Source: a virus
Lineage: Duplodnaviria; Heunggongvirae; Uroviricota; Caudoviricetes
Virus record (IMG/VR): IMGVR_UViG_3300042922_001018
Direction: 5' to 3' (one strand)
DNA: 64,000 nt
Under the pieces are notes generated by a model. The model worked only from the letters and a program-made list of their open reading frames with translations, had not been told where the DNA came from and did no database searches. A program made the translations under genes and the position numbers. Position 1 is the first letter of the stretch, and each line of letters opens with the position of its first letter. Below, piece by piece: positions 15,545-52,305 of the stretch.

Positions 15545-16324
15545 TCAGTCCAGGTAGTCGAACGGTGCGGCCGTGTACATGATGGCCGCGTACTCGCGCG
15601 TCAGCCCCGCTTCAGCGTATGCCTGGATGTCGTCTTCCAGCACGCTGTTCCGGGCAAGTTCGATTCCGAGCAAGTAGTCGTTCTCCACGCCAGTCCACTC
15701 GGCGATAGCGGCGAGGTACGTGTCCACTTCGGCGCCGACGGCGATGCCTTCCAGGCTCAGAACTTCGTCGAGGACACGGCGTCCGAACTCGTCCCGTGAC
15801 GAAGTCGAAATGAGGTAGCTCTCAACATGGTACCCCTGCGCCATGTCGCACACCGCACCGAGGTACGAGATGTCTTCACCATCGGTGAATGCTTCGGGTT
15901 CGGCAGGGAAGGCGTTCGCTCCAACCCGCTCGCAGAGCAGCTTCTCGTACTGTGGCGCAATCAGCCACATGTTTTCTGCGGCCGACTTTCCAGTTGCGTC
16001 CGCAAGTCTGATGGCGAAGTCGGTCTTAGCCTTGCGCGGCAGCAGCCAACCATGGATGTGCTTCACCTCCGCAGCGATGGCTTCCAGCACATCCGCATGC
16101 TGGACGTACGCTCGCGCACACGTCTCCGGCGAGACGACGGCGACCTTAGTCGGTGTCAGGCCGAACAAGTCGCGGTAGACTCCGGCGGAGAAACGCTGAG
16201 CGGCCTCAGGAGCAAGTAACTCCAGTGCGCTCTGCATGTCATCCCTCCGCGGCATCGCTGACGCGAAGGTGTTCGGGTCGAAAGGCATGATGCTAGCGTA
16301 CGCCGCGAAGCCGCACTGTGTCAA
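15545..16324 (-). CDS. Array subfamily B protein (259 aa)
   Basis: C-terminus EAGLTREYAAIMYTAAPFDYLD; last gene of the long paralogue operon. Confidence 0.6.
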   Translation of the reverse strand: MTQCGFAAYASIMPFDPNTFASAMPRRDDMQSALELLAPEAAQRFSAGVYRDLFGLTPTKVAVVSPETCARAYVQHADVLEAIAAEVKHIHGWLLPRKAKTDFAIRLADATGKSAAENMWLIAPQYEKLLCERVGANAFPAEPEAFTDGEDISYLGAVCDMAQGYHVESYLISTSSRDEFGRRVLDEVLSLEGIAVGAEVDTYLAAIAEWTGVENDYLLGIELARNSVLEDDIQAYAEAGLTREYAAIMYTAAPFDYLD

Positions 16325-17127
16325 GCAGAGACTTCGAGGAGGTACTCTAGCGGTACACCGTTCTTCGAGGCTTCGCTGATGGCCTCCGGGTCTGTCAGAC
16401 CCGCAGCCAGCGCAGCGACGGCGTACGGGGCGGGGACGCCAGTAATCAGACAGTCGAGCAGTAGACCGGCTGACTGCGGGTCTGACGCGTTACGAATGTG
16501 CTGCGGGTTGCATCCTGCTTTCAGCAGTGCGTACGCCTGCGGATGACCGAGGAAGTTCGAGCACAGCGTGTCGCGGGCTTCGCGCTCCGTCCATGACGCT
16601 CGCGGCGCGAGGAGGCCGAGATGCTTCCCGTCGGTCACAGACTTCAAGCCTTCGACGACGGAGGTTTCAATCGGTCCGATAATCAGCATGTTCAGGAGTG
16701 TCTGGGCGCCAGCAGGTCCAACCGAATCAGCGAGCGCAGAGTTGACGCCGTACACGAGGTGGAGCGGGTTCACTCTGCGCTCGGACGCGAGTTTCTCGAT
16801 GGTTTTCGCAGCGAGGTCGCGGTTCGAGTTCAGCGCCCAGTCATCTCGGAAATCCGCTCGCCCGGCATGGGCTAGCATCACCGGTCGAATCCAGGTGTCC
16901 ATCACCTTGAAGATGTGCTCGAACGTCTCCGGGTCTTCGTGGAACCGTGCGATGATGGCGCGGGCCGCACGCTCCGGCAGCTTGGTCCCACCCGGCTCCT
17001 GGAGAACATCCCGGTTCCAAGCCCAGTAGGCTCCAATACCGGTGAAGATGTACGGCAGCCGAGGTTCAATCTGTGCGAGCATAGCCGGGTTGGCGACTAG
17101 GTACACGCCTGCGTCGTAGTGGGTCAT
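16321..17127 (-). CDS. Array subfamily B protein (268 aa)
   Basis: ITGVPAPYAVAALAAGLTDPEAISEASKNGVPLEYLLEVSA; ATGA overlap. Confidence 0.6.
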   Translation of the reverse strand: MTHYDAGVYLVANPAMLAQIEPRLPYIFTGIGAYWAWNRDVLQEPGGTKLPERAARAIIARFHEDPETFEHIFKVMDTWIRPVMLAHAGRADFRDDWALNSNRDLAAKTIEKLASERRVNPLHLVYGVNSALADSVGPAGAQTLLNMLIIGPIETSVVEGLKSVTDGKHLGLLAPRASWTEREARDTLCSNFLGHPQAYALLKAGCNPQHIRNASDPQSAGLLLDCLITGVPAPYAVAALAAGLTDPEAISEASKNGVPLEYLLEVSA

Positions 17128-17131
17128 GGCG

Positions 17132-17986
17132 TCAATCCTTCACAATGCCGAGGGAGACGTACGCGTACTCCAGCGGAAGCCCGTCCTGGGAACAACGTAC
17201 GACATCGTCTACAGACATCCCGCGTGCGAGAGCTGCCGAAGCGTAAGGAGCATCCACGCCGCGAACGATGGCGTTCATCAGCTCGCGCTCACCGCCGATT
17301 CGGCTGGCCAGCGTGGTCAGGGCTTCTGTAGAGCACCCGGCTCGGAGGAGTTCGTAGCCGTAGTCCAACCTCGTGACCGTACGGCACAGTGAGTCGAACA
17401 CGTCCTTGTACCGCGCGCTGTCGAAGAGGAGGTTGCTCGGAACATCCGGTAGTGTCCCGTCGGAGGTCATTGACACGACCTTCTCCAGAATGTCCGGCTC
17501 CATCTTCATGAGGGAGCAGCCGAGGATGATGGACTCCGCTGTGTGCGGCGCCGTCGCCGATGCGAGGAACGGGGTCAGGCCGTAAAGGAGAGAGGCGAGA
17601 GGCATGTCTGCTCGGCGGGCTTCCGCACGGATAGCTTCCACGGGGTGTGGGTGCGCCAGCACTCGCTCGAAGATTTCCGGGTGTGCGACATACTGCCTGC
17701 TGATGGCCCGACCGATAGCCACGTCGAGGTGGCCCGTGTGAGCGTCGTTTCCGTCTGCTCTCGTCGAGAACGCCCCCGCCAATGCGGGTGACGTTTGGAA
17801 GAGGGTCAAGAAATGACCACGGACGATACGCTTCACAGGTCTAGCGTAGCTGTCGGAGCGGAACGTGTCAAGCTTGCGCCGTGCGTGACGGTGTAGACTG
17901 ACAGCATGAGCTACCGTACCGAAGAGCGCTTCGTCGGCGGGCTGGTTGCCGAGAAGCTTGCGGAGCTGCAAGAGCGCTACACTCAC
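17132..17986 (-). CDS. Array subfamily B protein (start 17986 ATG or 17836 GTG)
   Basis: RGVDAPYASAALARGMSVDDVVRCSQDGLPLEYAYV; alignment with paralogues favours the later GTG start (KRIVRGHFLTLF...). Confidence 0.55.
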   Translation of the reverse strand: MSVALLQLRKLLGNQPADEALFGTVAHAVSLHRHARRKLDTFRSDSYARPVKRIVRGHFLTLFQTSPALAGAFSTRADGNDAHTGHLDVAIGRAISRQYVAHPEIFERVLAHPHPVEAIRAEARRADMPLASLLYGLTPFLASATAPHTAESIILGCSLMKMEPDILEKVVSMTSDGTLPDVPSNLLFDSARYKDVFDSLCRTVTRLDYGYELLRAGCSTEALTTLASRIGGERELMNAIVRGVDAPYASAALARGMSVDDVVRCSQDGLPLEYAYVSLGIVKD

Positions 17987-18451
17987 GCTACGCAGTGTGC
18001 GGTGGACGAAGTCCCAGAAGCGTACGGTGGCATCGTCGAGACGTTGGTCTCGATGGTCGGCTTGTTCCCCGAGTGGCTGCGCCGCGGTGTCGAAGAAGAA
18101 GCTAAGCGTCGGACGTTCACGACGACGTGGAACATCACGGGCGAAGTGGACTCGCCTGAAGGTGCGCTCCTGTACCTTTACGCCGCGCTGTATGAACTCC
18201 GAGGCTACGCGACAGGCACGTGGTACATCCGCGATGTTGATGCGTGGCAGAAGCAGATTGAGCGCGTCTTCGAGGAGCCGGTCCGCGAAGCGGTGTCCTG
18301 GTGTTCAGCTCCCGGACTGAGCAACGGTGAGCAGGTACTCGACGGGGACTCCCGCAGCGTACGCGTCTATCACGATGGCCGCGCTGTCTGCTCCGCCAGC
18401 GAACGCTGCTACTGCGAAGGGAACTGGGACGGCTCGTGCAATGGTCTCTGA
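17906..18451 (+). CDS. hypothetical protein on the opposite strand inside the array (uncertain)
   Basis: High GC3 and protein-like composition for the first ~130 codons; the 3' 146 nt are antisense to the conserved C-terminus of gene 18305-19102. Confidence 0.3.
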   Translation: MSYRTEERFVGGLVAEKLAELQERYTHATQCAVDEVPEAYGGIVETLVSMVGLFPEWLRRGVEEEAKRRTFTTTWNITGEVDSPEGALLYLYAALYELRGYATGTWYIRDVDAWQKQIERVFEEPVREAVSWCSAPGLSNGEQVLDGDSRSVRVYHDGRAVCSASERCYCEGNWDGSCNGL

Positions 18452-22544: not shown

Positions 22545-22773
22545 CGGCTGCCGCCCTGAAGTATTCGTTCGGTACGCCATCATGCTCGGAGATGTACACC
22601 TCGGTCGCCTCCCAGCGACGCTGCATGCCCGCCGCCGGACCAGTACCCGCCTCGTCCGACCAGCGGTTCAGCATGCGCCCGTCCGGAAGCTGTGCGATGC
22701 TCCAACCGTCGTAGACGCCGGGCAGCTCGATGAGGACTGCGGCTTCTGAGAACTGTTCGGACGATACGGCCAT
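22537..22773 (-). CDS. mini-ORF (78 aa) ending in DGVPNEYFRAAAGA
   Basis: Third short ORF carrying only one copy of the family motif; Trp-rich. Confidence 0.35.
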   Translation of the reverse strand: MAVSSEQFSEAAVLIELPGVYDGWSIAQLPDGRMLNRWSDEAGTGPAAGMQRRWEATEVYISEHDGVPNEYFRAAAGA

Positions 22774-22782
22774 GCGCTCAGT

Positions 22783-23607: not shown

Positions 23608-23638
23608 GGCGCCAGCGTATCGGGGAAACGGTCCGAGG

Positions 23639-24430
23639 TCAAGCGGATGGGGAATCCACCAGCGTGAGGGCATACTCCAGCTCGATGCCTGCCTCTCCGA
23701 ACTTCTTGACATCATCGAGAGGCACGTTCACGTCAGCCAGCTTCAAGGCCATGAGCATCGACTCGCGGCTCTCGCCGAACCATTCGAAGACCGCAGACTG
23801 ATAGCTGTCAACATCTTCACGAACGGTGAGCCATGCGTCAGTGTCTATCTGCGGGAACAATACGCTGGTCAGAGCGTAGAACAAGAACTCGTCCACGTTA
23901 GCCGACCGACGGAGAACGGCGATGCTCTGGAAGCGCATGTTGGAAGTCAAGTCCATGGCTCGCTCCATGAGCGCAACCTCAGAGTCCGTCTTCGCGAGCT
24001 GGGCGAGGAGCGGCATCTGGCCGGGGAAACGCCGTTCCATGAAGTCTTCGAAAGTGGGAATGATGCCGGTGCACACTCCGGCGCGCGACAGACCCGCGTG
24101 ACGTGCGGCCATCCCGAGCGCAGTGTGCTGGGCGTCGTAACCCGTGCGCGTGGGTACCGCGTAGGCTTCGCGCGCGCCATACTCCAGAACGTCCTGGTTC
24201 ACAATGTACGCTCGTGCCCAATCCGCGACCTCACCCTTCTGGCCGTATCCCTGGGCTACGGACGGGAACACCCGCCGGTACTCACCGTCGCTGAACCGCC
24301 CGAACGCTTCCAGGTCAACTGCCTGAAGACCGCTCTGCATCTGTGCGTACGACGGCACATGCCGTAGCAGAGTGTGAGGCGAAATGGTGACCATGACGCT
24401 AGTGTAGACGCGGGCAGCCCTTCCAGTCAA
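23639..24430 (-). CDS. Array subfamily C protein
   Basis: ...VNVPLDDVKKFGEAGIELEYALTLV. Confidence 0.5.
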   Translation of the reverse strand: MTGRAARVYTSVMVTISPHTLLRHVPSYAQMQSGLQAVDLEAFGRFSDGEYRRVFPSVAQGYGQKGEVADWARAYIVNQDVLEYGAREAYAVPTRTGYDAQHTALGMAARHAGLSRAGVCTGIIPTFEDFMERRFPGQMPLLAQLAKTDSEVALMERAMDLTSNMRFQSIAVLRRSANVDEFLFYALTSVLFPQIDTDAWLTVREDVDSYQSAVFEWFGESRESMLMALKLADVNVPLDDVKKFGEAGIELEYALTLVDSPSA

Positions 24431-25227
24431 GCGGTGACCGCAAGGACGTACTCCAGCGCCAGACCCTCGCGGTGGTACTCCGCGACCTGCTTGCGCGTCA
24501 CACCCATCTTCACGAGGCCCAGAGCAACTTCCCAGTCGGCGCGGCCGAGCCAGAGCTGCACCGCGTCGTGGTAGCTGTACCCATCCACCTCTTCCTGCTC
24601 AGTGCAATACAGGAGGAAGGTGAGAGTCTCACCGAAGTAGTGGCCGAGGCTCACAGCTTCGCAGACCGCGGTCCCATGATTGTAGACCCGAGTTCCTCGG
24701 AGGAGATTCGCCGCAAGATGGTACTGGTTCAGGAGGGCAATCTCTGCGGCCTCTGTTACAAGGCTCGCGTTCATGGGCGCGTCAGTACGGCCCAGTACGG
24801 TGAGGTACTTCTCGAAGATGGGAGAGATGTCTGTGGCAACGGCCGCTTCCGAAATCTGAGCTAGCCCTGCGGCGTACGAGAGGGTCTCGCCTGCGCTCTG
24901 CTCCGATAGTGGCGAGACGGAACTCAGCTTCTTGCCGAAGAAAAGCGTCGTTGACGCGGCCTTCTCCAGATGAGGCGCGTGCGCCAGGTACCCCCGTGCC
25001 CAGCTTGCGCTGCGGGCGGGATGTGTCCAGTAGTTCTCGTCAGGCCGGAAGTGCTCTCGATACTCGCCCCGCTCGAAACGGCCTGCGGCTTCTGGGTCCA
25101 GCCCGAGGAGCGCTTCGTGCATGCTGGAGTAGTTCGGCCGTGTACGAGCCAGCCCAGATTCGAGCTGGCTCGTCATGCCAACTCGCGAAGCATCAAGGCG
25201 TATTCCGGAGCGAGACCGTTGCGCCAT
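24427..25227 (-). CDS. Array subfamily C protein (start possibly 25176)
   Basis: ...MGVTRKQVAEYHREGLALEYVLAVTA. Confidence 0.5.
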   Translation of the reverse strand: MAQRSRSGIRLDASRVGMTSQLESGLARTRPNYSSMHEALLGLDPEAAGRFERGEYREHFRPDENYWTHPARSASWARGYLAHAPHLEKAASTTLFFGKKLSSVSPLSEQSAGETLSYAAGLAQISEAAVATDISPIFEKYLTVLGRTDAPMNASLVTEAAEIALLNQYHLAANLLRGTRVYNHGTAVCEAVSLGHYFGETLTFLLYCTEQEEVDGYSYHDAVQLWLGRADWEVALGLVKMGVTRKQVAEYHREGLALEYVLAVTA

Positions 25228-25667
25228 GCCGCGATGATGTCGTTCACCGGTATTGGTGTTCCGTTCGCTTCCGGGTGGTACGCGCGGAGGTAGTCGAGGG
25301 GAACACCCGCCTTGTAGAGTTTCCGCGCGCTCCGCAGCATCTCTTCCTGCTTTGCGATGCGGGCGTCACCGTCTCTCTTCCAGATGTGAGAGTAACGCCC
25401 GAAGAACTCACGGACCCAGTCCACGGTGTCTTCCTCAGCCGGGTCGGCGCCGAGCATGTATGGGAAGCGTAGGAGAACGCCGACGGGCGGGCGCTCAGGG
25501 CGGTACGGGTACCGTTCGCCTTCGAGGCTCACCTGGAAGATGGCAACGAAGAATCGGTCGAATACCGCGTAGTCGTTGTGGAAGCTGCGCTCGATGATGG
25601 TGTACTGCTTCGCCGAGAGACCGCTGAGCTGGTGCTGGATGAAATCGCGGAGCTTCTGGTCAGCCAT
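25173..25667 (-). CDS. Array subfamily A protein (164 aa)
   Basis: SFHNDYAVFDRF...AGVPLDYLRAYHPEANGTPIPVNDIIAAWRNGLAPEYALML. Confidence 0.6.
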   Translation of the reverse strand: MADQKLRDFIQHQLSGLSAKQYTIIERSFHNDYAVFDRFFVAIFQVSLEGERYPYRPERPPVGVLLRFPYMLGADPAEEDTVDWVREFFGRYSHIWKRDGDARIAKQEEMLRSARKLYKAGVPLDYLRAYHPEANGTPIPVNDIIAAWRNGLAPEYALMLRELA

Positions 25668-26187
25668 GCCCGTTCCTCAGGATGAGTGCGTATTCGACCG
25701 GGATACCCGCATTCCAGTAGCTCAGGATTTCGTCCACGGGAATGGCGGTCCGCGCTTCGGTGGGGTGGAATGCGCGAAGGTAGTGGAGGGGCACGCCGCC
25801 GTCGGCGAGGTGTTGCGCTTCGCTCAGGATGCGCGCAACCGGCGGACGGGGTTTCCCGAAGACGTGGGAGTACCTGTCAAGGAACTCGGTAGCCCATTCC
25901 CGAGCTTCGGCTTCGCGCGGTGACCGGCCGAAGACCACCGGAGCGTGAAGGAGGAACGCTGCACTCCATCGGTGACGCGGCTGCGGCCCGAACTTGGTGG
26001 CGGTCTCTTCGCGAGTCTGCCAGAACGGCCAGTCAGTGATGTCGATTTCCGTGACCGCCTTACTGAAGTCAGCAAGAACATCGAGGTCATGCTCGAAACT
26101 GGCCGCGATAGCCGCCTGGCGCTCGTCTGAGACGCCCAGACCACTCAGGTAGTAGTCCACGACGACTTCGATGGTTTCGGCCGTCAC
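25660..26187 (-). CDS. Array subfamily A protein (175 aa)
   Basis: SFEHDLDVLADF...GGVPLHYLRAFHPTEARTAIPVDEILSYWNAGIPVEYALIL. Confidence 0.6.
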   Translation of the reverse strand: MTAETIEVVVDYYLSGLGVSDERQAAIAASFEHDLDVLADFSKAVTEIDITDWPFWQTREETATKFGPQPRHRWSAAFLLHAPVVFGRSPREAEAREWATEFLDRYSHVFGKPRPPVARILSEAQHLADGGVPLHYLRAFHPTEARTAIPVDEILSYWNAGIPVEYALILRNGHG

Positions 26188-26687
26188 AGGGCGCTCCTAG
26201 CGGTCAGAAGGTACTCTACAGAGACGCCAGAGACCCACAACTCGCGCAGCTCCGCAACGTTCGTGATGCCAGCCCGCATCAGAGACTCGATGAACGTGCC
26301 GGAGACACGCTCTTCTATGAAGGTACGAGCTTGTCGCCGCGAAAGCAGCGCCTCAGACCCACGCAGTTCCCAGCCGTTCGTCGTCAAGCGACCCCACGCG
26401 GCTGCGTCCGGGGCAGACGCTCGCTGTCGCAGCATGAGAGGCGTCGCGATGATGCGGCCCACTCCGTCTGGAACGAATGTCGGAGCGGAATCCTTCCACA
26501 TCTCAGCGACCGTATCCGAACCGGTCACAGCAGTCAGGTACGAGTTCACGAGGTCTGGCTTGCCGTTGAAGCTTTCACGGATGTCCCGGACTTCTGTCGG
26601 TGTGGGCCGAAGCCCACGCTTCAGCCCCTTGCTGGGACTCCACGCCCAACGGCGTACATAGTCCTCGAAGGAGAGAAGCTCGGTCAC
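26184..26687 (-). CDS. Array family protein, divergent (167 aa)
   Basis: RAGITNVAELRELWVSGVSVEYLLTARSAL. Confidence 0.5.
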   Translation of the reverse strand: MTELLSFEDYVRRWAWSPSKGLKRGLRPTPTEVRDIRESFNGKPDLVNSYLTAVTGSDTVAEMWKDSAPTFVPDGVGRIIATPLMLRQRASAPDAAAWGRLTTNGWELRGSEALLSRRQARTFIEERVSGTFIESLMRAGITNVAELRELWVSGVSVEYLLTARSAL

Positions 26688-26718
26688 CTCATCAGACTAC
26701 AGCAGCGGCGGTCCTGAG

Positions 26719-27429
26719 TCAAGGTGTGTACGCGGCAGGAAGAACCACGCGCCACTGCAAGCTACCCTCGACCATGGTGAAGCCTTCAGCCTCGAACAGC
26801 TTCACCATGCCAGGCAGATGGGCCGCACCCCAGTACAGAACGTGGGCGGGTGCGCTGGAGAACATCACGCTGCTCACAGCGTATTCGTTCCGGCGGTGCA
26901 GAATGTTCTTGGACAAGTCGCCGCCGATGAAGAGGCTGAGGAACCCCGGCATGACGGGCAGTAGGCGAAGCATCGCGAGAACCGTGTCCGGAGACGACTT
27001 CAAGATGTCGAGGTCCATGCGCCCGAGCTTCTCCAGGCGCCGGACGGTACGCGGCTTTAGAGCGCGGGCGATGTCGAGAGCCGACATATCTACCGGAATC
27101 CAGCGGGCATCCGCAGCAGCGAAAGCGTCTTTCTGGTACACGAGGCCAGTGGTCTCAGCGAGCAGCTTGCTCACGTCGCCCAGGGTAGTGATGGTGTTCA
27201 GGCGCGCCTGCTCCTCGGCGGTCACCTTCTCGGAGACCGGGCGGACGCCTTCCAGGTGAATGGTCCGGCCTTCGGCTTCCCACCGCCTCAACATGGCGAT
27301 GTCATGGTCCCAGGAATCCTGCGTAGCGACATGCTGGACGGCGACGAGCGTTACCGTATGCCCGTACGAGTTCCGGAGGAGGACCGTGCCCATCTCCGAA
27401 CCGCGCGCGGTTCGACGAGTGTACTTCAT
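26719..27429 (-). CDS. Possible TraB/GumN (TIKI)-like family protein inserted in the array
   Basis: 236 aa; C-terminal LYWGAAHLPGMVKLFEAEGFTMVEG resembles the GumN [AV]GAAHL.G motif; weak assignment. Confidence 0.4.
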   Translation of the reverse strand: MKYTRRTARGSEMGTVLLRNSYGHTVTLVAVQHVATQDSWDHDIAMLRRWEAEGRTIHLEGVRPVSEKVTAEEQARLNTITTLGDVSKLLAETTGLVYQKDAFAAADARWIPVDMSALDIARALKPRTVRRLEKLGRMDLDILKSSPDTVLAMLRLLPVMPGFLSLFIGGDLSKNILHRRNEYAVSSVMFSSAPAHVLYWGAAHLPGMVKLFEAEGFTMVEGSLQWRVVLPAAYTP

Positions 27430-28019
27430 GCGTCCAAGACTAGCATGCCCTCCGCGAGGAGCGTCTGAGCGTATTCGTAGGCGATTCCCGTGCGATGCAA
27501 CGCGATGACTTCGTCGATGCTCTTCATCGTCATCGTGGGGCGATAGAACAGGGCGGCAAACTCAGGGGGTACTCCGCCTCGGTGGAAACGGCGAGCGGCG
27601 ATGACCGGACGAGACTTCAGGACGTATTCGCTGCGTTCACCAGCCTTGCCGAAGGGGAGAAAGAGCCGCGCCCAGATGGCCGCTTCTGGCTCCCGAGGGT
27701 CAAGACGAAGCATGAGCGGGAGCATCAGTGCGTCGTAGACTCGGCCGATTTGGCGAGTCGTACTTTCGGGGATGTAATGGTTTCGCTCGGACATGTGCAG
27801 CCAGGTGAGGCCCGATACGTCGGCGGTGGCGTATGCGTTCAGGTAGCCGTGCAGAACGTCGATGTCGTCATGGAAGCTGGCGTACAGCGCTGCGCGCTTT
27901 CTTCCCGGCGCGAGCGCATGCTCTGAGACCCAGAAGTCGATGAACGCGCGCAGCGCTTCTTTCGGGTCATCGGGCCGCTTCATGTCAAAACCGTACCACT
28001 TTCGGTACGGTTTTGACAA
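27426..28019 (-). CDS. Array subfamily A protein (197 aa)
   Basis: ASFHDDIDVLHGYL...DPREPEAAIWARLFLP...RGGVPPEFAALF...TGIAYEYAQTLL. Confidence 0.6.
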   Translation of the reverse strand: MSKPYRKWYGFDMKRPDDPKEALRAFIDFWVSEHALAPGRKRAALYASFHDDIDVLHGYLNAYATADVSGLTWLHMSERNHYIPESTTRQIGRVYDALMLPLMLRLDPREPEAAIWARLFLPFGKAGERSEYVLKSRPVIAARRFHRGGVPPEFAALFYRPTMTMKSIDEVIALHRTGIAYEYAQTLLAEGMLVLDA

Positions 28020-28020
28020 G

Positions 28021-28557
28021 TCACCAGCTCTCGCTGAGCGCGATGCGCACGTACTCGGGCGCGAGTCCCTCGTGGTATGCAGAGATGATGAGGCGCTGCG
28101 TTGGACCTTTCATCCCCCGCACGTAGTACGTGGCAGCGTACGCCGCAGGCACTCCAGCTCGATGGAAGCGTCGCGCTGCGATGACCGCTTGGGACTTCAC
28201 GGAACAGTCGGCGTATTCGTCCGTCGGGAGGAATAGGCGTGCCCACTCCGCCACCTCGTCTTCACGCGGGTCAAGGCCCAGCATCGAGGGGAGCATGATG
28301 GCTTCGGCGAGACGGCCGACCTGAGCAGTGACGGCACGCGAAGGATGCGGCATAACGCGTCCCGGCTCGAACCGTTGCCAGAGCAGCTCGCGTACGTCTA
28401 CTCCGACGTATCGGGCTAGGTAGCCGTAGAGGACTTCAACATCATGATGGAAGCTCGCACGGATGCGGTGGCGCTTCTCCGAAGCTGTCATGCTGTACCC
28501 GAGCCAATAGTCGGTCAACATGCGCAGCATCACTGAATGCTGCCGCGCTGTGTCCAT
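28021..28557 (-). CDS. Array subfamily A protein (178 aa)
   Basis: ASFHHDVEVLYGYL...DPREDEVAEWARLFLP...RAGVPAAYAATY...EGLAPEYVRIAL. Confidence 0.6.
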   Translation of the reverse strand: MDTARQHSVMLRMLTDYWLGYSMTASEKRHRIRASFHHDVEVLYGYLARYVGVDVRELLWQRFEPGRVMPHPSRAVTAQVGRLAEAIMLPSMLGLDPREDEVAEWARLFLPTDEYADCSVKSQAVIAARRFHRAGVPAAYAATYYVRGMKGPTQRLIISAYHEGLAPEYVRIALSESW

Positions 28558-28589
28558 GACAGAATCATCTCATTTCTGAGTCGTTTTTG

Positions 28590-29105
28590 TCAACCCGGAT
28601 AGATGGCGAGCCGAGCGTACTCCAGTGGCGTTCCCTCTTCGTACGCGGTAACCACAGCGTCTACGGGGATGTACGCGTGAAGCTGCGGCGGGTCGAACGC
28701 CTGGAAGTAGGAGAGGGGAACGCCGCTGTTGATAGCGTGCCGCACGGCATCAGAGGACCGGAATCTGGTCACTTCGTCGAAGCCGCCTCGCGCCGTCTGC
28801 GCGACACGGGAGGTGGCGAACTTCGCCCATTCGGCGGTCTCAGGGTCTCGCGGGTCCATCTTGTAGTCGTCAGGGAACGTCAGCGTTTCGACACGGTCCG
28901 CGATGAGGTCAGCGTCACGGATTTCCGGGATGTCGTTGTCCCACTCGATGTAGACGAAGGGGACTTCCTGCTCCCCGAACACTCGTCGCAGGTAGGTAAT
29001 GAGCGTCTCGTATTCACCGTAGAGCGTGAGGAGGGCGTCCTTCCGCTGAGGTACCCACGCTCCGAGAATCTCCTCCAGCGTATTGTCGATGCCTGAGCGG
29101 CTCAC
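28590..29105 (-). CDS. Array subfamily A protein (GTG start overlapping upstream stop, GTGA)
   Basis: DPRDPETAEWAKFA...SGVPLSYFQAFDPPQLHAYIPVDAVVTAYEEGTPLEYARLAI. Confidence 0.55.
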   Translation of the reverse strand: MSRSGIDNTLEEILGAWVPQRKDALLTLYGEYETLITYLRRVFGEQEVPFVYIEWDNDIPEIRDADLIADRVETLTFPDDYKMDPRDPETAEWAKFATSRVAQTARGGFDEVTRFRSSDAVRHAINSGVPLSYFQAFDPPQLHAYIPVDAVVTAYEEGTPLEYARLAIYPG

Positions 29106-29596
29106 AGCACGACGCTCAGGTAATCGGCGGGGACACCTTCGCGCCATCCTGCGATGACATCAGTGGTCGGGTACTCACCCCACGGCGCCGTGACGCTGTT
29201 CGCATAGCTCAGCGGTACGCCCGCATCGAGCAGCAGGAACATGTCGTCCGTATCCGGGAACCGCGGGAACGTCCGATACTTGCCGGTCTCCTCGTCGAAG
29301 ATGACCCGCTCGGCAGCAAACACAGCCCAAGCCGCGGTCTCTGCGTCACGCGGGTCCATCCCGCTGCGCACCGGGAAAAGGACGACATCCCCAGGAGTCG
29401 GCTGGTCGATTCCGTGGTTGCCGGTGAGCGCTTGGTCCGCCCAGTCGCCGTAGACGCGCGAGAAGTAGTCCTTGAACACCAGGGCGTCATGGTGGAAGGC
29501 TTCGAGTGTGCTCCACACGCTGACTCGGGGAACATGCTTCTCGACCAGCTCTCGCAGGTCGGTCTTATCGTCTATCAAGTCCAGTAGCTTCGTCAT
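29102..29596 (-). CDS. Array subfamily A protein (start trimmed to MTKLLDLIDD)
   Basis: EAFHHDALVFKDYF...GMDPRDAETAAWAVFA...AGVPLSYANSV...EGVPADYLSVVL. Confidence 0.55.
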   Translation of the reverse strand: MTKLLDLIDDKTDLRELVEKHVPRVSVWSTLEAFHHDALVFKDYFSRVYGDWADQALTGNHGIDQPTPGDVVLFPVRSGMDPRDAETAAWAVFAAERVIFDEETGKYRTFPRFPDTDDMFLLLDAGVPLSYANSVTAPWGEYPTTDVIAGWREGVPADYLSVVL

Positions 29597-30114
29597 GCTG
29601 ACCCTCCGTAGATGATTTCCTGCGCATACTCGACCGCCAGACCCTCTGCGTGTGCCTGGAAGATGCGCTCCAAGGGAAGCTTCTCGCCCCAGTAGGTAAC
29701 GTCGAGAGCCTTCACGTAAGCGAGTGAGACACCGCGCTCGCAGAGCTGCCGCGTGTTCCAGGCGGGAGCGTCGAAACGGCTGAGCGGCATGTAAGCATCC
29801 GGATGTATCTCGATGCTGCGGTGAATAGCGAACGCCGCCCACTCGCCGGTCTCTGGAGACCTGGGGTCCAGACCGCTGAGGAACGGGAATGTGAGGGCTT
29901 CCGGAAGGTCACCGATGGTGGCGAGAATCGCATCTGCCGAGTCGAAGCCGTCCATGACGAGTTTCGTGTTCTTCCCGTAGATGAGAGTCAGGTACTCGCG
30001 CAGCACGTCGAGGTCGTCATGGAAAGACTCCACGTAGGACGCCGTGCTGTTGTCCTTGACCCACCGGCCGATGATGTTGGTCACGGCGCTCGCGTGCTCG
30101 CCCCGTCGGCTCAT
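29593..30114 (-). CDS. Array subfamily A protein (173 aa)
   Basis: ESFHDDLDVLREYL...GLDPRSPETGEWAAFA...RGVSLAYVKAL...EGLAVEYAQEII. Confidence 0.6.
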   Translation of the reverse strand: MSRRGEHASAVTNIIGRWVKDNSTASYVESFHDDLDVLREYLTLIYGKNTKLVMDGFDSADAILATIGDLPEALTFPFLSGLDPRSPETGEWAAFAIHRSIEIHPDAYMPLSRFDAPAWNTRQLCERGVSLAYVKALDVTYWGEKLPLERIFQAHAEGLAVEYAQEIIYGGSA

Positions 30115-30665
30115 GTGCTCACTCCGTAGATAGCTTCGCGCGCGTACTCGACAGGGATGTCAGAGTTCCAGGCGTCGATGATGGCGTCCAATGGGAACAG
30201 GGGCGTCGGACCACAGTCGAGTGCTTTCAGGTAATCGAACGGGATGTCCGCAAGGCGAATACGTCGGTAGGCTTCGGCCGGGTCGCCGAACCGGCCCACG
30301 AACTGAATCTCGGGGTCCGGGAACACCGTATCCCAGCGGTGGCAGAGGAAGTGCGCCCATTCGCTTGTGGAAGGGTCACGCGGGTCCAACCCCGTGAGGG
30401 CAGGGAGCATCAAAGCTTCGCGGATGTCGGCGATGTAACGAGCGGGCTGCTTCTGAACGTCCGTATCGCAGTCCATGACGGCGTACGCCTGGCTGCCGTA
30501 GAGACCGAGGAGGTATCGGCGGAGCACCCAGTAGTCGCGGTCGTAGGTATCCAGGTGAGGTTCGATGTCCACGTCGGTAAGCCAGTGAGACAGCACCTCA
30601 AACAACTGCGCCTCGTTCGTCTCACCGGGGAGACGGGTCTCGGTGCGGAAGCCCTTATCGCTCAC
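30111..30665 (-). CDS. Array subfamily A protein (GTG start, GTGA overlap)
   Basis: GLDPRDPSTSEWAHFL...ADIPFDYLKALDCGPTPLFPLDAIIDAWNSDIPVEYAREAI. Confidence 0.55.
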   Translation of the reverse strand: MSDKGFRTETRLPGETNEAQLFEVLSHWLTDVDIEPHLDTYDRDYWVLRRYLLGLYGSQAYAVMDCDTDVQKQPARYIADIREALMLPALTGLDPRDPSTSEWAHFLCHRWDTVFPDPEIQFVGRFGDPAEAYRRIRLADIPFDYLKALDCGPTPLFPLDAIIDAWNSDIPVEYAREAIYGVST

Positions 30666-31240
30666 GGCTTCGCTCCGTACAGAAGCTCGCGCGCGTACTC
30701 CACGGCGATACCCGACTGGTACAGAGGGATGATGCGTCCGACCGGCATCTTCTTCCGCCACGAGTCGGTATCCAGCGCAAGGGCGTACTCCAGGGGAACA
30801 CCGGCCTTATAGAGCTGGACGACCTCCCCTTGCTCCGCACGCTGACGGTACTCGTAGGTGCCACCCGCGTGGTGCGGTACGAAAGCCTTCGCCCACCGGA
30901 CCGTCTCCGGGTCGCTCGGGTCCATGCCCATCCGTGAGGGGAATGCGAGTAGCGACGGCATGTCTTCCATAAGGGCGGCGCCCATCGGCTTGCCGTGTCG
31001 GTCCCAGATGGCTTGGTGAATGTTCCAGCCGGAGTGAGCAACGAGGTACGCGTCCAACGTGTCCGCATCCTTGAAGCTCGCGATGATGTCGTCGAACTCC
31101 GACGGGAACACTACCCCGGAGACGAGGGGAGGGTTTTGAGCCGCGTCCGCCTTCGGAGTGCACCAGAACTCGACGAGGTCGGAGACGCGCCGGTTAGCAG
31201 GCGGCGCCTCGCCCGGCATGAGGCGACGCGAGAATGGCAT
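30662..31240 (-). CDS. Array subfamily A protein (192 aa)
   Basis: GMDPSDPETVRWAKAF...AGVPLEYALALDTDSWRKKMPVGRIIPLYQSGIAVEYAREL. Confidence 0.6.
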   Translation of the reverse strand: MPFSRRLMPGEAPPANRRVSDLVEFWCTPKADAAQNPPLVSGVVFPSEFDDIIASFKDADTLDAYLVAHSGWNIHQAIWDRHGKPMGAALMEDMPSLLAFPSRMGMDPSDPETVRWAKAFVPHHAGGTYEYRQRAEQGEVVQLYKAGVPLEYALALDTDSWRKKMPVGRIIPLYQSGIAVEYARELLYGAKP

Positions 31241-31272
31241 ATCGCCATCGTACCCCGATGTCTATGCCGGTG

Positions 31273-31464
31273 TCAACCGCCGTTCAGCGCGTTGACGACG
31301 AACCCGATGAGGAGCACGACGCCGAACACTCCGAGTACGACGTACTGGATGCGGTTTGCGAGCAGGAACCGCTGGAAAGTCTTCTTCTGCGCTTCCTCTG
31401 TGACAGCGCGAGTATACTCGGTCGGTTCGGTGGAGTGGGGGTCGAAGTCCGCGGGGCGTTCCAT
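31273..31464 (-). CDS. small membrane protein (63 aa)
   Basis: C-terminal TM YVVLGVFGVVLLIGFVVNAL; divergent from the SPFH gene. Confidence 0.35.
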   Translation of the reverse strand: MERPADFDPHSTEPTEYTRAVTEEAQKKTFQRFLLANRIQYVVLGVFGVVLLIGFVVNALNGG

Positions 31465-31513
31465 CTCTACATCCTACCGGATGGTTTCGGGAAACATGCG
31501 ATAGACTGCCACC

Positions 31514-32500
31514 ATGACAGAAGAGACAGCTCCCGCAGTAGTGGTCATCGACCGCTCCGCCCGCCGCACCGAAGTCGAAGCGAAGGTTCGGGTCGCCGAG
31601 AAGTCGGCTCCGACTGTCGGCCAGGGGCCGACCATCATCGTGCTCATCCTCGCCTCGCTGGCGGGACTCTTCTCCATCTTCAAGGTGGGAGAGGGTATCG
31701 TCACCTCGTTCATCGCCTCGCAGACCTACGGCGCGGTGGCGCCGAGCCAGTCGTACTGGTGGTGGCTGGTCGTGTCCGTCGTCGCCTTTATTCTGCTCGG
31801 GTTCGTGAACTTCCAGCACCCGAACTCCGCCCGTGTGTTCACCCTCTTCGGCAACTACATCGGCACGGTCTCGAAGACCGGCCTCTACATGGTCCCTGTC
31901 CCTTTCCTCGCGAGCACCGCCCTCAGCCTGGCACAAGCAAACTTCGAGAGCGCCTCGCTGAAAATCAACGACAAGCGCGGCAACCCGCTTTCCGTCTCGG
32001 CCATCGTCGTCTATCGAGTGAACAACCCCGCGCAGGCCATCTTCAGCGTCGCGAACTACACCTCCTACCTCGCCACCCAGGTGGAGGCCGCGCTTCGTCA
32101 GGCTGTCGCTCAGCACCCGTACTCGTCGGCGAAGGAGGGCGAGTCTTCGCTCCTGCTGAACAGCGACGAAATCAACGACCAGCTCACGGCCGAAATCGCT
32201 GAGGCTGTGGTCGTCGCCGGAATCGAAATCGTCGAGGCCCGTATCAACAACCTCGCCTACAGTGTGGAGATTGCCCAGGCCATGCTCCAGGTTCAGGCGG
32301 CTGAGGCTATCCTCGAAGCCCGTGAAGTTCTCGTGGAAGGCAGCGTCGGCATCGTCGAGAAGGCGGTCGAGCGCCTGGAGGCGGGAACCGACGGGCACAA
32401 GCCCACCGTCTTCAACGATGAGCAGCGCGTGAAGCTGACGACCAACCTGCTGACAGTCCTCGTGGGCGAGCGCTCGGCTCAGCCGGTCATCGAACTGTAA
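31514..32500 (+). CDS. SPFH/band-7 (stomatin/prohibitin/flotillin-like) membrane protein
   Basis: 328 aa; N-terminal TMs then an SPFH-like core (...KINDKRGNPLSVSAIVVYRV...) and C-terminal Ala/Glu-rich coiled coil; the only plus-strand gene interrupting the array. Confidence 0.75.
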   Translation: MTEETAPAVVVIDRSARRTEVEAKVRVAEKSAPTVGQGPTIIVLILASLAGLFSIFKVGEGIVTSFIASQTYGAVAPSQSYWWWLVVSVVAFILLGFVNFQHPNSARVFTLFGNYIGTVSKTGLYMVPVPFLASTALSLAQANFESASLKINDKRGNPLSVSAIVVYRVNNPAQAIFSVANYTSYLATQVEAALRQAVAQHPYSSAKEGESSLLLNSDEINDQLTAEIAEAVVVAGIEIVEARINNLAYSVEIAQAMLQVQAAEAILEAREVLVEGSVGIVEKAVERLEAGTDGHKPTVFNDEQRVKLTTNLLTVLVGERSAQPVIEL

Positions 32501-32504
32501 GCCG

Positions 32505-32551
32505 AAACGAGAATGCCCCGACCGCATCGCGTGGTCGGGGCATTCTCGTTT
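32505..32551. terminator. Bidirectional rho-independent terminator (19-bp perfect stem, 9-nt loop, flanking A/T tracts)
   Basis: AAACGAGAATGCCCCGACC-gcatcgcgt-GGTCGGGGCATTCTCGTTT, 5 nt after the SPFH stop. Confidence 0.75.
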
Positions 32552-32553
32552 CG

Positions 32554-32694
32554 TTAGACGGTACCGGTTGGATAGACGGTCGCCTGGCCGTGGTCCAGGA
32601 CGATGACTGTCACGCTCTCGGAGAACGGGGCGCTCTGCGCTCGGAGTTCGGCGCCGACCGTCTCGGTCGGGCGTTCATGCTGAGAATCTTCCAT
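32554..32694 (-). CDS. possible small ORF (46 aa)
   Basis: MEDSQHERPTETVGAELRAQSAPFSESVTVIVLDHGQATVYPTGTV; not in the supplied track; weak. Confidence 0.2.
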   Translation of the reverse strand: MEDSQHERPTETVGAELRAQSAPFSESVTVIVLDHGQATVYPTGTV

Positions 32695-32721
32695 AGCCCT
32701 ACGCTAGCGCGGAGCAGTTCG

Positions 32722-33300
32722 TTACGCAAGCGCCCAGGCGTATTCGGGAGTGACGCCCTGCTGATACAGGTCGCGGACTGTCACTGCCGGGTATCTAGCG
32801 TCGGGACCAGGGTCGAGCGCGCGAAGGTAATCTAGGGGCACTCCCGCCTCTCGCAGCCACCGAAGTTCGACGAATGAGACACGCGGGCTGTAGTTCGGGG
32901 AGTGTCGCCCGTCTCGGTTCGGGAGCAGCCTGGGCGCGAAGAACGTCGCCCACCCTCGCGCCTCGTCCGGCTCCATTCCCACGGCTGCGGGGAACTGGAT
33001 GAGCGTCGGAATGTCGTCACGGAGGTCATTGACCATCCAGTACGATTTGAGGCTGGCAGGCGGGTCGTAGAGCGATACGAGAGAGTGCTTGTGGACGCGT
33101 CCGTCGGTCACGTCGGAGAGGAAGGAGAGGATGCTCGCGAGGTCATGGTCGAAGCTCTCCTTGACCAGTTCTTCGGTCTCCTCGACTGTCTGACCTACGG
33201 TGAGCCAGGAACGGCCAAGCCAGGTAGAGACGAAATCGTCAAGCAGCGGGTCGAGGTGCTGTTGCAGCTTCGTCCGCCGGTTGTGATTCCGCTTCGGCAA
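32722..33300 (-). CDS. Array subfamily A protein (192 aa), first member of the array
   Basis: ESFDHDLASILSFL...GMEPDEARGWATFF...EAGVPLDYLRALDPGPDARYPAVTVRDLYQQGVTPEYAWALA. Confidence 0.6.
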   Translation of the reverse strand: MPKRNHNRRTKLQQHLDPLLDDFVSTWLGRSWLTVGQTVEETEELVKESFDHDLASILSFLSDVTDGRVHKHSLVSLYDPPASLKSYWMVNDLRDDIPTLIQFPAAVGMEPDEARGWATFFAPRLLPNRDGRHSPNYSPRVSFVELRWLREAGVPLDYLRALDPGPDARYPAVTVRDLYQQGVTPEYAWALA

Positions 33301-52278: not shown

Positions 52279-52289
52279 TGCTTGCTGGT

Positions 52290-52298: not shown

Positions 52299-52305
52299 CG
52301 AGGGC

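What the first reader, a model, noticed from the sequence alone, without database searches (positions are those of the whole stretch)
15545..33300. Array of at least 30 tandem paralogues sharing a bipartite C-terminal motif G-[VI]-P-x-E-Y-[AL]
Nearly every gene from 33300 down to 15545 belongs to one superfamily, with further copies at 1689, 5289, 6553, 7325, 8356 and 54276. Subfamily A (11 genes, 25173-33300, ~170-200 aa) shares SFHxDx[DE]VLxxYL, a [GM][LM]DPR[DS]PE[TS]xxWAxF box, and a C-terminus of the type AGVPLxYLxALD...[IP]xxxIIxAWxxGIxVEYAxxL. Subfamily B (9 genes, 15545-22544, ~225-330 aa) shares W.GD..TL, YG[IM]P.YV, [LIV]G[DE][MI][ED].HVL..L, LG[VA].P.YA and ...GIPAEY. Subfamily C (22783-25227 plus 54276) shares LRH[IV]P, GEYR and WARAY. 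The genes are linked by ATGA/GTGA overlaps in one operon about 18 kb long. The terminal double repeat resembles a degenerate helix-turn-helix (compare sigma-70 region 4 GIPxGTV) but matches no family I can name. Thirty diversified copies of one fold in tandem is the signature of an arms-race repertoire, such as immunity or anti-defence proteins, host-takeover modules or decoys. It may be the partner set for the leader-bearing effectors.
Basis: seen in the sequence. Interest (0 to 1): 0.85.

Follow-up and report, generated by a model that had tools for sequence, protein, structure and literature searches.

The report
Arrays of GVPxEY helical-repeat proteins
About 32 genes in this window, and at least 18 more just outside it, encode small acidic all-helical proteins ending in an undescribed ~28-residue repeat that also occurs in the outward-facing tails of many bacterial sensor proteases; what they do is unknown, and they most likely bind other proteins.

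Summary
The motif G[VIL][PAST]x[ED..][YF] occurs 46 times on the minus strand and twice on the plus strand. Profile searches define subfamilies A (11 genes), B (8), D (5) and C (5), plus three mini-genes, about 32 in all. A, B and D are homologous over most of their length (hhalign 93-97%). C is linked only through its terminal unit.

The "bipartite motif" is 1-4 copies of a helix-Gly-helix repeat. The repeat is not private to this contig: its profile finds 1042 protein clusters, mainly Peptidase_M56 (BlaR1-like) membrane proteins and signal-peptide proteins with 5-14 copies. The reverse profile recovers the window family. No Pfam, NCBIfam, PHROG, PADLOC or PDB entry covers it.

Orthologues on a related contig keep gene order at 39-67% identity, while paralogues share about 25%. 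The array is therefore old and stable, not a recent amplification.

The host contig is 450 kb, high-GC and mostly ORFans. My best guess, inferred only, is a repertoire of soluble protein-binding modulators.

The parts
32722..33300 (-). Subfamily A member (192 aa), two terminal units (GVPLDY, GVTPEY)
30662..31219 (-). Subfamily A member (185 aa); the protein modelled with AlphaFold (pLDDT 77, 13 helices)
30111..30665 (-). Subfamily A member (184 aa)
29593..30114 (-). Subfamily A member (173 aa)
29102..29596 (-). Subfamily A member (164 aa)
28590..29105 (-). Subfamily A member (171 aa)
28021..28521 (-). Subfamily A member (166 aa)
27426..27983 (-). Subfamily A member (185 aa)
26184..26687 (-). 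Divergent subfamily A member (167 aa), one clear terminal unit
25660..26187 (-). Subfamily A member (175 aa)
25173..25667 (-). Subfamily A member (164 aa)
24427..25176 (-). Subfamily C member (249 aa), terminal unit GLALEY; no orthologue in L002
23639..24340 (-). Subfamily C member (233 aa); orthologue in L002 at 41% identity
22783..23607 (-). Subfamily C member (274 aa); orthologue in L002 at 39% identity
22537..22773 (-). 78-aa mini-member ending in DGVPNEY; conserved in L002
21876..22544 (-). Subfamily B member (222 aa); orthologue in L002 at 67% identity
21208..21879 (-). Subfamily B member (223 aa); AlphaFold model with pLDDT 90.9 and 17 helices; orthologue at 57% identity
20516..21211 (-). 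Subfamily B member (231 aa); orthologue at 47% identity
19827..20519 (-). Subfamily B member (230 aa); orthologue at 39% identity
19102..19830 (-). Subfamily B member (242 aa); orthologue at 41% identity
18305..19102 (-). Subfamily B member (265 aa), not called by the metagenome annotation
17132..17782 (-). Subfamily B member (216 aa from a TTG start; the ORF extends to 17986)
16321..17127 (-). Subfamily B member (268 aa)
15545..16288 (-).
54276..54989 (-). Outlying subfamily C member (237 aa), terminal unit GIALEY
8356..9105 (-). Subfamily D member (249 aa) with 3-4 units
8172..8297 (-). Uncalled 41-aa ORF made of a double unit only (…GIPVHDA…GVPVEYLATLH)
7325..8269 (-). Subfamily D member (314 aa as called) with 4 units
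6553..7332 (-). Subfamily D member (259 aa) with 4 units
5289..5957 (-). Subfamily D member (222 aa) with 2-3 units
1689..2306 (-). Subfamily D member (205 aa) with 4 units
1451..1657 (-). 68-aa mini-member with one unit (LWREGIPVEYAVEAF)
31247..31276 (-). Promoter-like site (TTGACA-18-TACGAT) just upstream of the first gene of the main A run
   Evidence: a consensus match only
26719..27429 (-). Non-member (236 aa, one hydrophobic segment) embedded in the A run and coupled by an ATGA overlap

Best explanation
**What it is (shown).** This is a very large lineage-specific multigene family of small proteins (41-314 aa).
- The proteins appear soluble: none has an N-terminal hydrophobic segment. 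Most are acidic.
- The AlphaFold models of one A and one B member are all-helical.
- Each protein ends, at its extreme C-terminus, in 1-4 copies of a 24-30-residue helix-Gly-helix unit: h..h..L..G-[VI]-P-x-E-Y-[AVL]..h.
- The conserved residues sit where a Gly turn, a helix start and a buried aromatic would lie. I read them as fold determinants, not a catalytic or ligand-binding site.
- The unit belongs to a widespread but uncurated bacterial repeat. That repeat otherwise forms long arrays with a 28-29-residue period in the C-terminal tails of Peptidase_M56 (BlaR1-like) membrane proteins and in signal-peptide proteins.

**Arrangement (shown).**
- On this 450-kb, high-GC, ORFan-rich contig the genes lie in co-directional runs, and many are linked by 4-nt start/stop overlaps.
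- There are about 32 copies in the window and at least 18 more 5-16 kb beyond its right end.
- The contig is probably a huge phage or megaplasmid. An Actinomycetota host is a weak hint only.
- Orthologues on related elements keep their order and are more alike than paralogues. Each copy is therefore an old gene kept by selection.

**How it works (inferred, not shown).** The proteins act by binding other proteins. The helical hairpins would form a short solenoid or UBA-like bundle surface, and each paralogue would recognise a different host or element partner. The arrays would then be a repertoire of non-enzymatic modulators (host takeover, anti-defence or regulation), produced together from host-type promoters.
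For: **The family is real and far from chance.**
- Motif count is 46 on the minus strand against 2 on the plus strand.
- phmmer blocks define the subfamilies.
- hhalign probabilities are A-B 92.7%, A-D 96.9% and B-D 94.4%.
- The unit HMM hits no non-family ORF.

**The proteins are helical, soluble and non-enzymatic by every test run.**
- The models have pLDDT 77 and pTM 0.76 (13 helices), and pLDDT 90.9 and pTM 0.83 (17 helices).
- No member has an N-terminal hydrophobic segment.
- Most members have pI 4.4-5.9.
- There are no Pfam, PHROG, PADLOC or NCBIfam hits.

**The repeat is widespread.**
- The double-unit profile finds 1042 clusters, 257 of them at E <= 1e-10. Many of the top hits are M56 proteins with 7-14 units.
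- A profile built only from those long proteins ranks 21 window members above every other window ORF.
- Conserved positions fall in the same register.

**The copies are old and conserved.**
- Orthologues share 39-67% identity in the same order, while the best paralogues share 25-35%.
- No DNA repeat is longer than 58 nt.

**Similar arrays exist elsewhere.**
- L014 has 18 members and L004 has 21-22 of 32 genes.
- L006 has 10 and L011 has 9-10, the latter with the same Type III mod-res neighbours.

**Expression signals.** 11 four-nucleotide and two eight-nucleotide overlaps link neighbouring genes, and a TTGACA-18-TACGAT site lies upstream of the A run.
Against: - There is no direct evidence of any binding partner or phenotype.
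- The pattern expected of an adaptor family, a conserved docking tail with a variable head, is weak. Orthologues are equally conserved in head and tail, and paralogues are only slightly more alike in the last 55 residues (34% against 29%).
- The UBA-like similarity is below any significance threshold.
- The element type is unresolved. It is absent from IMG/VR, INPHARED and PLSDB. Only one clear phage-family hit (phrog_5429, E 1.6e-35) and one weak endolysin hit were found nearby.
- In M56 proteins the repeat is presumably extracytoplasmic, so its role there may differ from its role in these cytoplasmic proteins.
Confidence: 0.45

Rival explanations
1. The genes are a repertoire of immunity (antitoxin) proteins. 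Tandem non-identical paralogues would neutralise polymorphic toxins, possibly the proteins with the MTFDETDHPRxxDGKFAEKTG leader. This would resemble strings of esaG/DUF600 or polyimmunity loci.
For: - The genes are small and soluble, and form tandem non-identical paralogue arrays on a mobile-looking element.
- Three leader-bearing genes (14881, 14081, 13536) follow the array on the same strand.
- One leader protein carries a GmrSD_N nuclease-type domain.
- Strings of non-identical immunity paralogues are a known arrangement (PMC9484751, listed).
Against: - No toxin gene is interleaved with or immediately upstream of the runs.
- At least 50 repeat genes stand against about 9 leader proteins.
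- No member hits any Pfam immunity family.
- There are no recombination or near-identical DNA tracts between copies.
- Paralogues are ancient and kept one-to-one between elements.
Confidence: 0.12
2. The proteins are cargo. The terminal repeats would act as a shared recognition domain for a translocation or packaging machine (a conjugative T4SS, a T7SS or the virion), and the proteins would be delivered into a recipient or host cell.
For: - The conserved module is always at the extreme C-terminus, where T4SS signals and domains such as XVIPCD lie (from my own knowledge).
- The window also encodes six pilin-like paralogues and secreted proteins.
- The family is large and diversified.
Against: - The same unit occurs internally, in 5-14 copies, in Sec-dependent and membrane proteins. 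It is therefore a structural repeat and not a signal in itself.
- No secretion-system ATPase or coupling protein was seen in the roughly 90 kb examined.
- There are no PHROG structural hits.
Confidence: 0.12
3. The proteins are DNA-binding regulators or nucleoid proteins. The terminal double unit would be a degenerate HTH or (HhH)2 module.
For: - The helix-Gly-helix geometry and the G-to-G spacing of 26-30 residues recall the (HhH)2 domain.
- Distant relatives give sub-threshold hits to HHH_5, HTH_68 and HTH_7: 1-3 of 106 proteins each.
Against: - No window member gives an HTH, HHH or sigma Pfam hit at E <= 1.
- Most members have net charge -5 to -21.
- The hairpin reads G-[VI]-P, not G-h-G.
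- The repeat sits in the presumably extracytoplasmic tails of M56 and secreted proteins.
Confidence: 0.04
4. The proteins are structural self-assembly components. The paralogues would hetero-oligomerise through their repeats into a scaffold, inner body or compartment of a huge phage.
For: - Many co-expressed acidic paralogues would fit this role.
- Repeat units resembling small oligomerisation motifs: 1 of 106 relatives gives a SHOCT-like hit.
- Huge phages are known to carry paralogous inner-body families (from my own knowledge).
Against: - There are no PHROG structural hits.
- No capsid, portal or terminase gene was seen in the sequence examined.
- The arrays lie beside defence-type and early-type genes rather than morphogenesis genes.
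Confidence: 0.08

Closest known systems
Uncurated 28-29-residue 'L..L+.HGV[TS]PEY[VI]' repeats in the C-terminal tails of Peptidase_M56 (BlaR1-like) membrane proteins and of 330-600-aa signal-peptide proteins
   Same: - The conserved positions are in the same register: -7 h, -4 L, 0 G, +1 V, +2/3 P, +4 E/D, +5 Y/F, +6 A/V, +9 h.
- The profile matches are reciprocal.
- Both are predicted helix-turn-helix hairpins.
   Different: - Window proteins are short, cytoplasmic-looking and acidic. They have no protease, TM or signal segment.
- They carry 1-4 units with an irregular 24-30-residue spacing, against 5-14 units with a strict period.
- They have a subfamily-specific helical N-terminal part.
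- They occur in arrays of tens of genes.
Multigene families of helical-repeat proteins in large DNA viruses (poxvirus ankyrin/PRANC proteins, ASFV MGF360/505). This comparison rests on my own knowledge.
   Same: Both have tens of diversified paralogues of a non-enzymatic repeat protein, clustered in co-directional arrays on a large, fast-evolving element. Both families are presumed to act by protein binding.
   Different: - The repeat is unrelated.
- The setting is prokaryotic.
- No evidence exists for a C-terminal adaptor that recruits host machinery.
- Function has not been tested.
Strings of non-identical T7SS immunity genes (esaG/DUF600; PMC9484751) and polyimmunity loci of polymorphic toxin systems (PMC3482391)
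   Same: Both are tandem, non-identical small paralogues.
   Different: - There is no adjacent toxin.
- There is no homology to known immunity families.
- There are no DNA-level recombination tracts.
- Copies are conserved one-to-one between elements.
UBA-like three-helix bundles (UBA, CUE, EF-Ts N-terminal domain)
   Same: - There is a local structural match over 40-45 residues at rmsd 2.0-2.7 A.
- One B member gives a weak Pfam Ubiq-assoc hit of 13.4 bits.
   Different: - The Pfam score is below the 27-bit cut-off.
- The turn reads G-[VI]-P rather than M-G-[FY].
- The units are tandemly repeated.
SHOCT / Nif11-leader type helix-Gly-helix motifs
   Same: Both have the short pattern 'helix-G-h-x-[ST/P]-x-E-[EY]-h helix'. 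A few distant relatives give sub-threshold hits: Frankia_peptide 7, Nif11 2 and SHOCT-like 1, each of 106 proteins.
   Different: No window member hits these models. The aromatic residue is in a different register, and those motifs are not tandemly repeated.

Membership tests
M56-associated GV[TS]PEY repeat (uncurated; defined here by profile) | Reciprocal profile similarity of the unit | tested here: met
   The window-derived profile finds 1042 clusters. A profile built only from long M56 and signal-peptide proteins ranks 21 window members first, with E from 1e-9 to 0.08.
M56-associated GV[TS]PEY repeat (uncurated; defined here by profile) | Long tandem array (5 or more units) with a strict 28-29-residue period | tested here: not met
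   Window proteins have 1-4 units with spacings of 24-30 residues.
M56-associated GV[TS]PEY repeat (uncurated; defined here by profile) | Attachment to an N-terminal signal peptide or to an M56 transmembrane protease | tested here: not met
   No member has an N-terminal hydrophobic segment or an HExxH motif.
Sigma-70 region 4 / HTH DNA-binding domains | Match to an HTH or Sigma70_r4 profile | tested here: not met
   Pfam gave no such hit for 10 members at E <= 1.
Sigma-70 region 4 / HTH DNA-binding domains | Structural match to HTH proteins and a basic DNA-binding surface | tested here: not met
   [not shown]
(HhH)2 domain | G-h-G hairpin and a match to an HHH profile | tested here: not met
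   The turn reads G-[VI]-P. No window member has an HHH hit, and only 2 of 106 distant relatives do, below threshold.
UBA-like superfamily | Compact three-helix bundle of about 40 residues superposable on UBA/CUE/TS-N domains | tested here: inconclusive
   [not shown]
UBA-like superfamily | Profile match above the curated threshold | tested here: not met
   Ubiq-assoc scores 13.4 bits against a 27-bit cut-off, in one member only.
SHOCT domain | Match to a SHOCT profile | tested here: not met
   No window member has such a hit. One of 106 distant relatives matches a SHOCT-like model.
Polyimmunity / esaG-like immunity strings | A cognate toxin gene adjacent to the string | tested here: not met
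   No toxin-domain gene lies upstream of or within the runs. The only nearby candidates are three leader proteins downstream.
Polyimmunity / esaG-like immunity strings | Homology to known immunity families, or recombination tracts between copies | tested here: not met
   There are no Pfam or PADLOC hits. DNA repeats are at most 58 nt at 60-86% identity.
Viral multigene families of repeat proteins | Tens of diversified tandem paralogues of a repeat protein on a large mobile genome | tested here: met
   About 32 copies lie in the window and 18 in L014. Similar arrays occur on L004, L006 and L011.
Viral multigene families of repeat proteins | The element is a virus, and the proteins modulate host functions | not testable with these tools
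   Only about 90 kb of the 450-kb contig could be read, and no capsid or terminase gene was seen. The contig is absent from IMG/VR.

The most novel reading that the evidence does not exclude
The GVPxEY unit is a previously undescribed, widespread bacterial helical repeat. A clade of giant high-GC (probably actinobacterial) mobile elements has expanded a cytoplasmic short form of it into arrays of 50 or more genes. These would serve as a diversified protein-binder repertoire for host takeover or anti-defence, a prokaryotic counterpart of the ankyrin host-range families of poxviruses and giant viruses.
Probability: 0.25. Interest if true: 0.75.

Novelty: new variant of a known kind. Interest (0 to 1): 0.55.

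Why it matters
- **A new repeat family.** The result defines a repeat found in more than 1000 protein clusters, including many BlaR1-like sensor proteases. No curated library or solved structure covers it, so it is a concrete target for a new domain model and a first structure.
- **An unusually large investment.** One uncultivated 450-kb element devotes at least 30 kb to this single family, and at least five related contigs carry similar arrays. If the proteins are binders that reprogramme the host, they would be a large source of new modulators and possibly anti-defence proteins.
- **If they turn out to be structural or cargo proteins,** they would instead reveal an unknown part of the biology of these giant elements.

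Tried and rejected
**Searches of known collections that found nothing**
- Megablast and tblastn of the region and of members against INPHARED phages and PLSDB plasmids gave no match.
- Three IMG/VR scans with members found no relative.
- Pfam, PHROGs, PADLOC and NCBIfam gave nothing for members.
- A PDB sequence search with the repeat profile gave only chance hits.
- Foldseek against BFVD gave nothing at E <= 0.001.
- A literature search for a description of the M56 tail repeats found none.

**Tool failures and limits**
- The AlphaFold-database library was not available.
- The word-indexed protein search with the short double-unit alignment returned nothing, although the same profile works. 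I treat this as a limit of the tool.
- The search for related loci with the B alignment failed because no stretch was conserved enough.
- A two-motif degenerate DNA pattern was too strict even for the window, so I did not use it on collections.

**Host and element type**
- The Type III methylase gave no taxonomic signal.
- The pilin-like family gave a single 7-kb contig from a 'Microbacterium' MAG. This is a weak hint only.

**Ideas rejected on the evidence**
- Chance or overlapping-frame artefact. The strand asymmetry, the orthologues and the confident models all argue against it.
- Recent amplification or gene conversion.
- HTH or sigma-like DNA binding.

Full report
**1. Where the window comes from**

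A subfamily B protein (21208-21879) is identical to a gene on JGI metagenome contig 3300042934|Ga0456364_0000048, which is 450,372 bp long. The window is record positions 78,260-142,259 of that contig. G+C is about 62% throughout and there are no tRNA genes.

Very few genes have any Pfam hit. The window and its flanks hold:
- a Type III restriction-modification pair (mod 46629-48458, res 44038-46629)
- a fatty-acid desaturase and a Band_7 protein
- a PKD-domain protein and LRV-repeat proteins
- a GmrSD_N protein and a YqeY protein
- beyond the right end, Fic and a NAD-dependent DNA ligase

The region matches nothing in INPHARED, PLSDB or IMG/VR. One neighbouring gene matches phage family phrog_5429 strongly, and another matches an endolysin family weakly. 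I could read only about 90 kb of the contig. Whether it is a huge phage or a megaplasmid is therefore not settled.

The one taxonomic hint comes from the invariant N-terminus of the six pilin-like paralogues. It recurs at 65% identity on a 7-kb contig binned as 'uncultured Microbacterium sp.'.

**2. Checking the observation**

The motif is far from chance.

An all-vs-all phmmer comparison resolves four blocks:
- A: 11 genes, 25173-33300
- B: 8 genes, 16321-22544
- C: 15545, 22783, 23639, 24427 and 54276
- D: 1689, 5289, 6553, 7325 and 8356

Profile-profile comparison shows that A, B and D are homologous over most of their length, not only at the tail:
- A-B: 92.7% over 137 columns
- A-D: 96.9%
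- B-D: 94.4%

C is weaker, at 5-47%. What links C is its last unit. With a unit HMM trained without any C sequence, three C members score 16.6, 12.9 and 10.4 bits. The best non-family ORF among 340 scores 4.6 bits, apart from the 78-aa mini-gene counted here as a member (6.2 bits). The unit is always at the extreme C-terminus. The other two C members score at noise level, but they are clear paralogues of the first three.

Three mini-genes also carry the unit:
- 1451-1657 (68 aa)
- 22537-22773 (78 aa), which is conserved on a related contig
- 8172-8297, an uncalled 41-aa ORF that is nothing but a double unit

The total in the window is about 32: 24 with strong support, 5 in C and 3 mini-genes.

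- 15545 belongs to C, not B.
- 26719-27429 and 33304-33771 are not members.
- A plus-strand Band_7 gene splits the run, so it is not a single 18-kb operon.
- 11 junctions are ATGA/GTGA overlaps and two more are 8-nt overlaps.
- Six of the seven promoter-like sites found lie on the minus strand. One is a perfect -35 box just upstream of the first gene of the main A run. These are consensus matches only.

**3. What the motif is**

The 'bipartite' motif is two copies of one unit. D proteins have 3-4 copies, A has 2, B has 2 or more, and C has 1 clear copy.

In both AlphaFold models the unit is helix, then a Gly turn, then helix. The whole proteins are helical:
- A member: pLDDT 77, pTM 0.76, 13 helices
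- B member: pLDDT 90.9, pTM 0.83, 17 helices

**4. The repeat is widespread but uncurated**

A 57-position profile of the double unit was searched against 1.84 billion representative proteins. It found 1042 clusters at E <= 0.001 and 257 at E <= 1e-10, most with 3-10 matched stretches.

The top 150 hits fall into three classes:
- 44 have an HExxH motif and are 585-1188 aa long. All five that I scanned match Peptidase_M56 (BlaR1-like) and carry 7-14 units in the C-terminal tail.
- 72 others are longer than 300 aa (mostly 330-600 aa). Most have an N-terminal hydrophobic signal followed by repeats.
- 34 are short (300 aa or less) and lack a signal, like the window proteins.

The match is reciprocal. 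A profile built only from 188 double units of the long proteins ranks 21 window members above every other window ORF.

The period is a strict 28-29 residues in the long proteins and 24-30 in the window family. Conserved positions are in the same register.

No Pfam or NCBIfam model covers the repeat. Only sub-threshold hits to small helical motifs appear: HHH_5, HTH_68, DUF433, Frankia_peptide/Nif11 and SHOCT-like. No PDB chain contains it by sequence.

**5. Fold comparison**

**6. Properties that bear on function**

- No member has an N-terminal hydrophobic segment. Three B members have a moderately hydrophobic internal helix.
- Most members are acidic: pI 4.4-5.9, net charge -5 to -21.
- The repeat also sits in the tails of M56 membrane proteins and in signal-peptide proteins. 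I take those tails to be extracytoplasmic by analogy with BlaR1. With the acidity and the lack of HTH or sigma hits, this argues against the DNA-binding (HTH) idea.
- No catalytic motif or enzyme family was detected.

**7. Evolution**

A 6.6-kb Logan contig (L002) carries the same gene order: A, C, C, the 78-aa gene, then five B genes. Orthology is one-to-one at 39-67% identity, whereas the best paralogue matches are 25-35%. One C copy present in the window is absent there.

Within the window, median pairwise identity inside a subfamily is 23-26%. DNA-level repeats are at most 58 nt and are simply the conserved motifs. The array is therefore ancient, and each copy is maintained. There is no sign of recent amplification or gene conversion.

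Head and tail are equally conserved between orthologues. Between paralogues the last 55 residues are only slightly more alike than the rest, 34% against 29%. The family is not a constant docking tail with hypervariable heads.

**8. More arrays**

Arrays on other contigs:

| Locus | Source | Members found |
|---|---|---|
| L014 | same 450-kb contig | 18 (10-kb run) |
| L004 | 63.5-kb contig | 21-22 of 32 genes |
| L006 | 55-kb contig | 10 |
| L011 | 24.9-kb contig | 9-10 A-like genes |

- The L014 run starts 5-16 kb beyond the window's right end and lies next to the DNA ligase.
- On L011 the A-like genes are followed by two genes of C-like size (258 and 244 aa; their identity was not tested). 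The run lies downstream of the same LRV, Type III mod and res genes.
- L008 and L012 look similar.

This is a recurrent feature of a clade of high-GC, ORFan-rich elements.

**9. Interpretation**

*Shown.* This is a real, very large, old multigene family of small proteins. They look soluble and are mostly acidic, the two modelled members are all-helical, and they are built around a widespread but undescribed helical repeat.

*Inferred.* The conserved residues look like fold determinants (Gly turn, helix start, buried aromatic). No enzyme, membrane or nucleic-acid signature is present. The most economical mechanism is therefore protein binding, with each paralogue recognising a different partner. 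The setting would fit a host-takeover, anti-defence or regulatory repertoire: co-directional coupled genes behind host-type promoters on a giant mobile element next to a restriction-modification system. I put this at about 0.45.

*Rivals.*
- Immunity strings (0.12)
- Translocated or packaged cargo, with the tail as recognition domain (0.12)
- Self-assembling structural components (0.08)
- DNA binding (0.04)

**10. Novelty and score**

Tandem multigene families of repeat proteins on large mobile genomes are a known kind of thing. The repeat, the family and the element clade are not described in any library I could search. I rate it a new variant of a known kind, with interest 0.55. The size of the expansion and the link to M56 sensor tails are the notable points. 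The function remains open.

Noticed in passing
L014:9956-20315 (record ~147.8-158.2 kb of the same 450-kb contig, outside the window): A second run of 18 genes of the same family lies next to a NAD-dependent DNA ligase. The contig therefore carries at least 50 copies.
   Followed up: partly
window 4064-4711(-), 13536-14078(-), 14081-14884(-), 14881-15519(-), 43283-43996(-), 52282-52833(+), 60277-60711(+), 63476-63946(+): These proteins share the N-terminal leader MTFDETDHPRxxDGKFAEKTG…[AS]PE-V, followed by unrelated C-terminal parts; one is a GmrSD_N nuclease-type domain. The leader ends in A/S-P-E, which recalls prohead-protease cleavage sites (from memory, untested). There is no match in deposited phages.
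   Followed up: partly
window 9232-10629, 10741-12084, 33831-35036, 35033-36235, 36235-37377, 37377-38543 (all -): Six pilin-like paralogues of 380-465 aa share an invariant N-terminus (ERGATDPILIIAGIAITLILLVGG) and have variable C-terminal halves. The only relative in GTDB genomes is a 7-kb contig of an 'uncultured Microbacterium sp.' MAG (65% identity over residues 1-157).
   Followed up: partly
window 44038-46629(-) and 46629-48458(-): A Type III restriction-modification pair (res, mod). The same pair, with LRV-repeat genes on one side and the A-type array on the other, is conserved on a 24.9-kb Logan contig (L011).
   Followed up: partly
window 48540-48986, 48992-49432, 49434-50384 (+): Three adjacent paralogues with weak or faint LRV (leucine-rich variant) repeat hits. 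This is a second helical-repeat family on the element.
   Followed up: no
window 18305-19102(-) versus 17906-18451(+): The metagenome gene caller missed a clear subfamily B member. It called an overlapping plus-strand ORF instead.
   Followed up: yes
window 8172-8297(-): An uncalled 41-aa ORF consists only of a double repeat unit. It lies between two D genes and overlaps the called start of 7325-8269, whose true start may be the TTG near 8197.
   Followed up: partly
window 26719-27429(-): A 236-aa non-member with one strongly hydrophobic segment is embedded in the A run and joined to its upstream neighbour by an ATGA overlap. It has no family hit.
   Followed up: no
window 41061-42461(-) and 42458-43270(-): A 466-aa protein with a signal peptide and a GFSQGA serine-hydrolase-like motif is coupled to a PKD-domain protein. 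They look like secreted or surface proteins, lying between the pilin-like genes and the restriction system.
   Followed up: no
window 38697-39299(+) and 53064-53792(+): The first matches phage family phrog_5429 ('DNA repair protein', E 1.6e-35). The second matches an endolysin family weakly (E 1e-5). These are the only phage-family hits found apart from the helicase and methylase.
   Followed up: no
window 2303-3052/5957-6592, 55542-56150/56610-57164, 57230-57730/57775-58236, 51574-51909/51949-52278: Several further small paralogue pairs appear in the all-vs-all BLASTP. Gene duplication is pervasive on this element.
   Followed up: no
The word-indexed protein search returned nothing for the double-unit alignment. 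The same profile scores 44-77 bits on members and finds 1042 clusters in the exhaustive search. A negative from the indexed search with a short alignment should not be trusted.
   Followed up: yes
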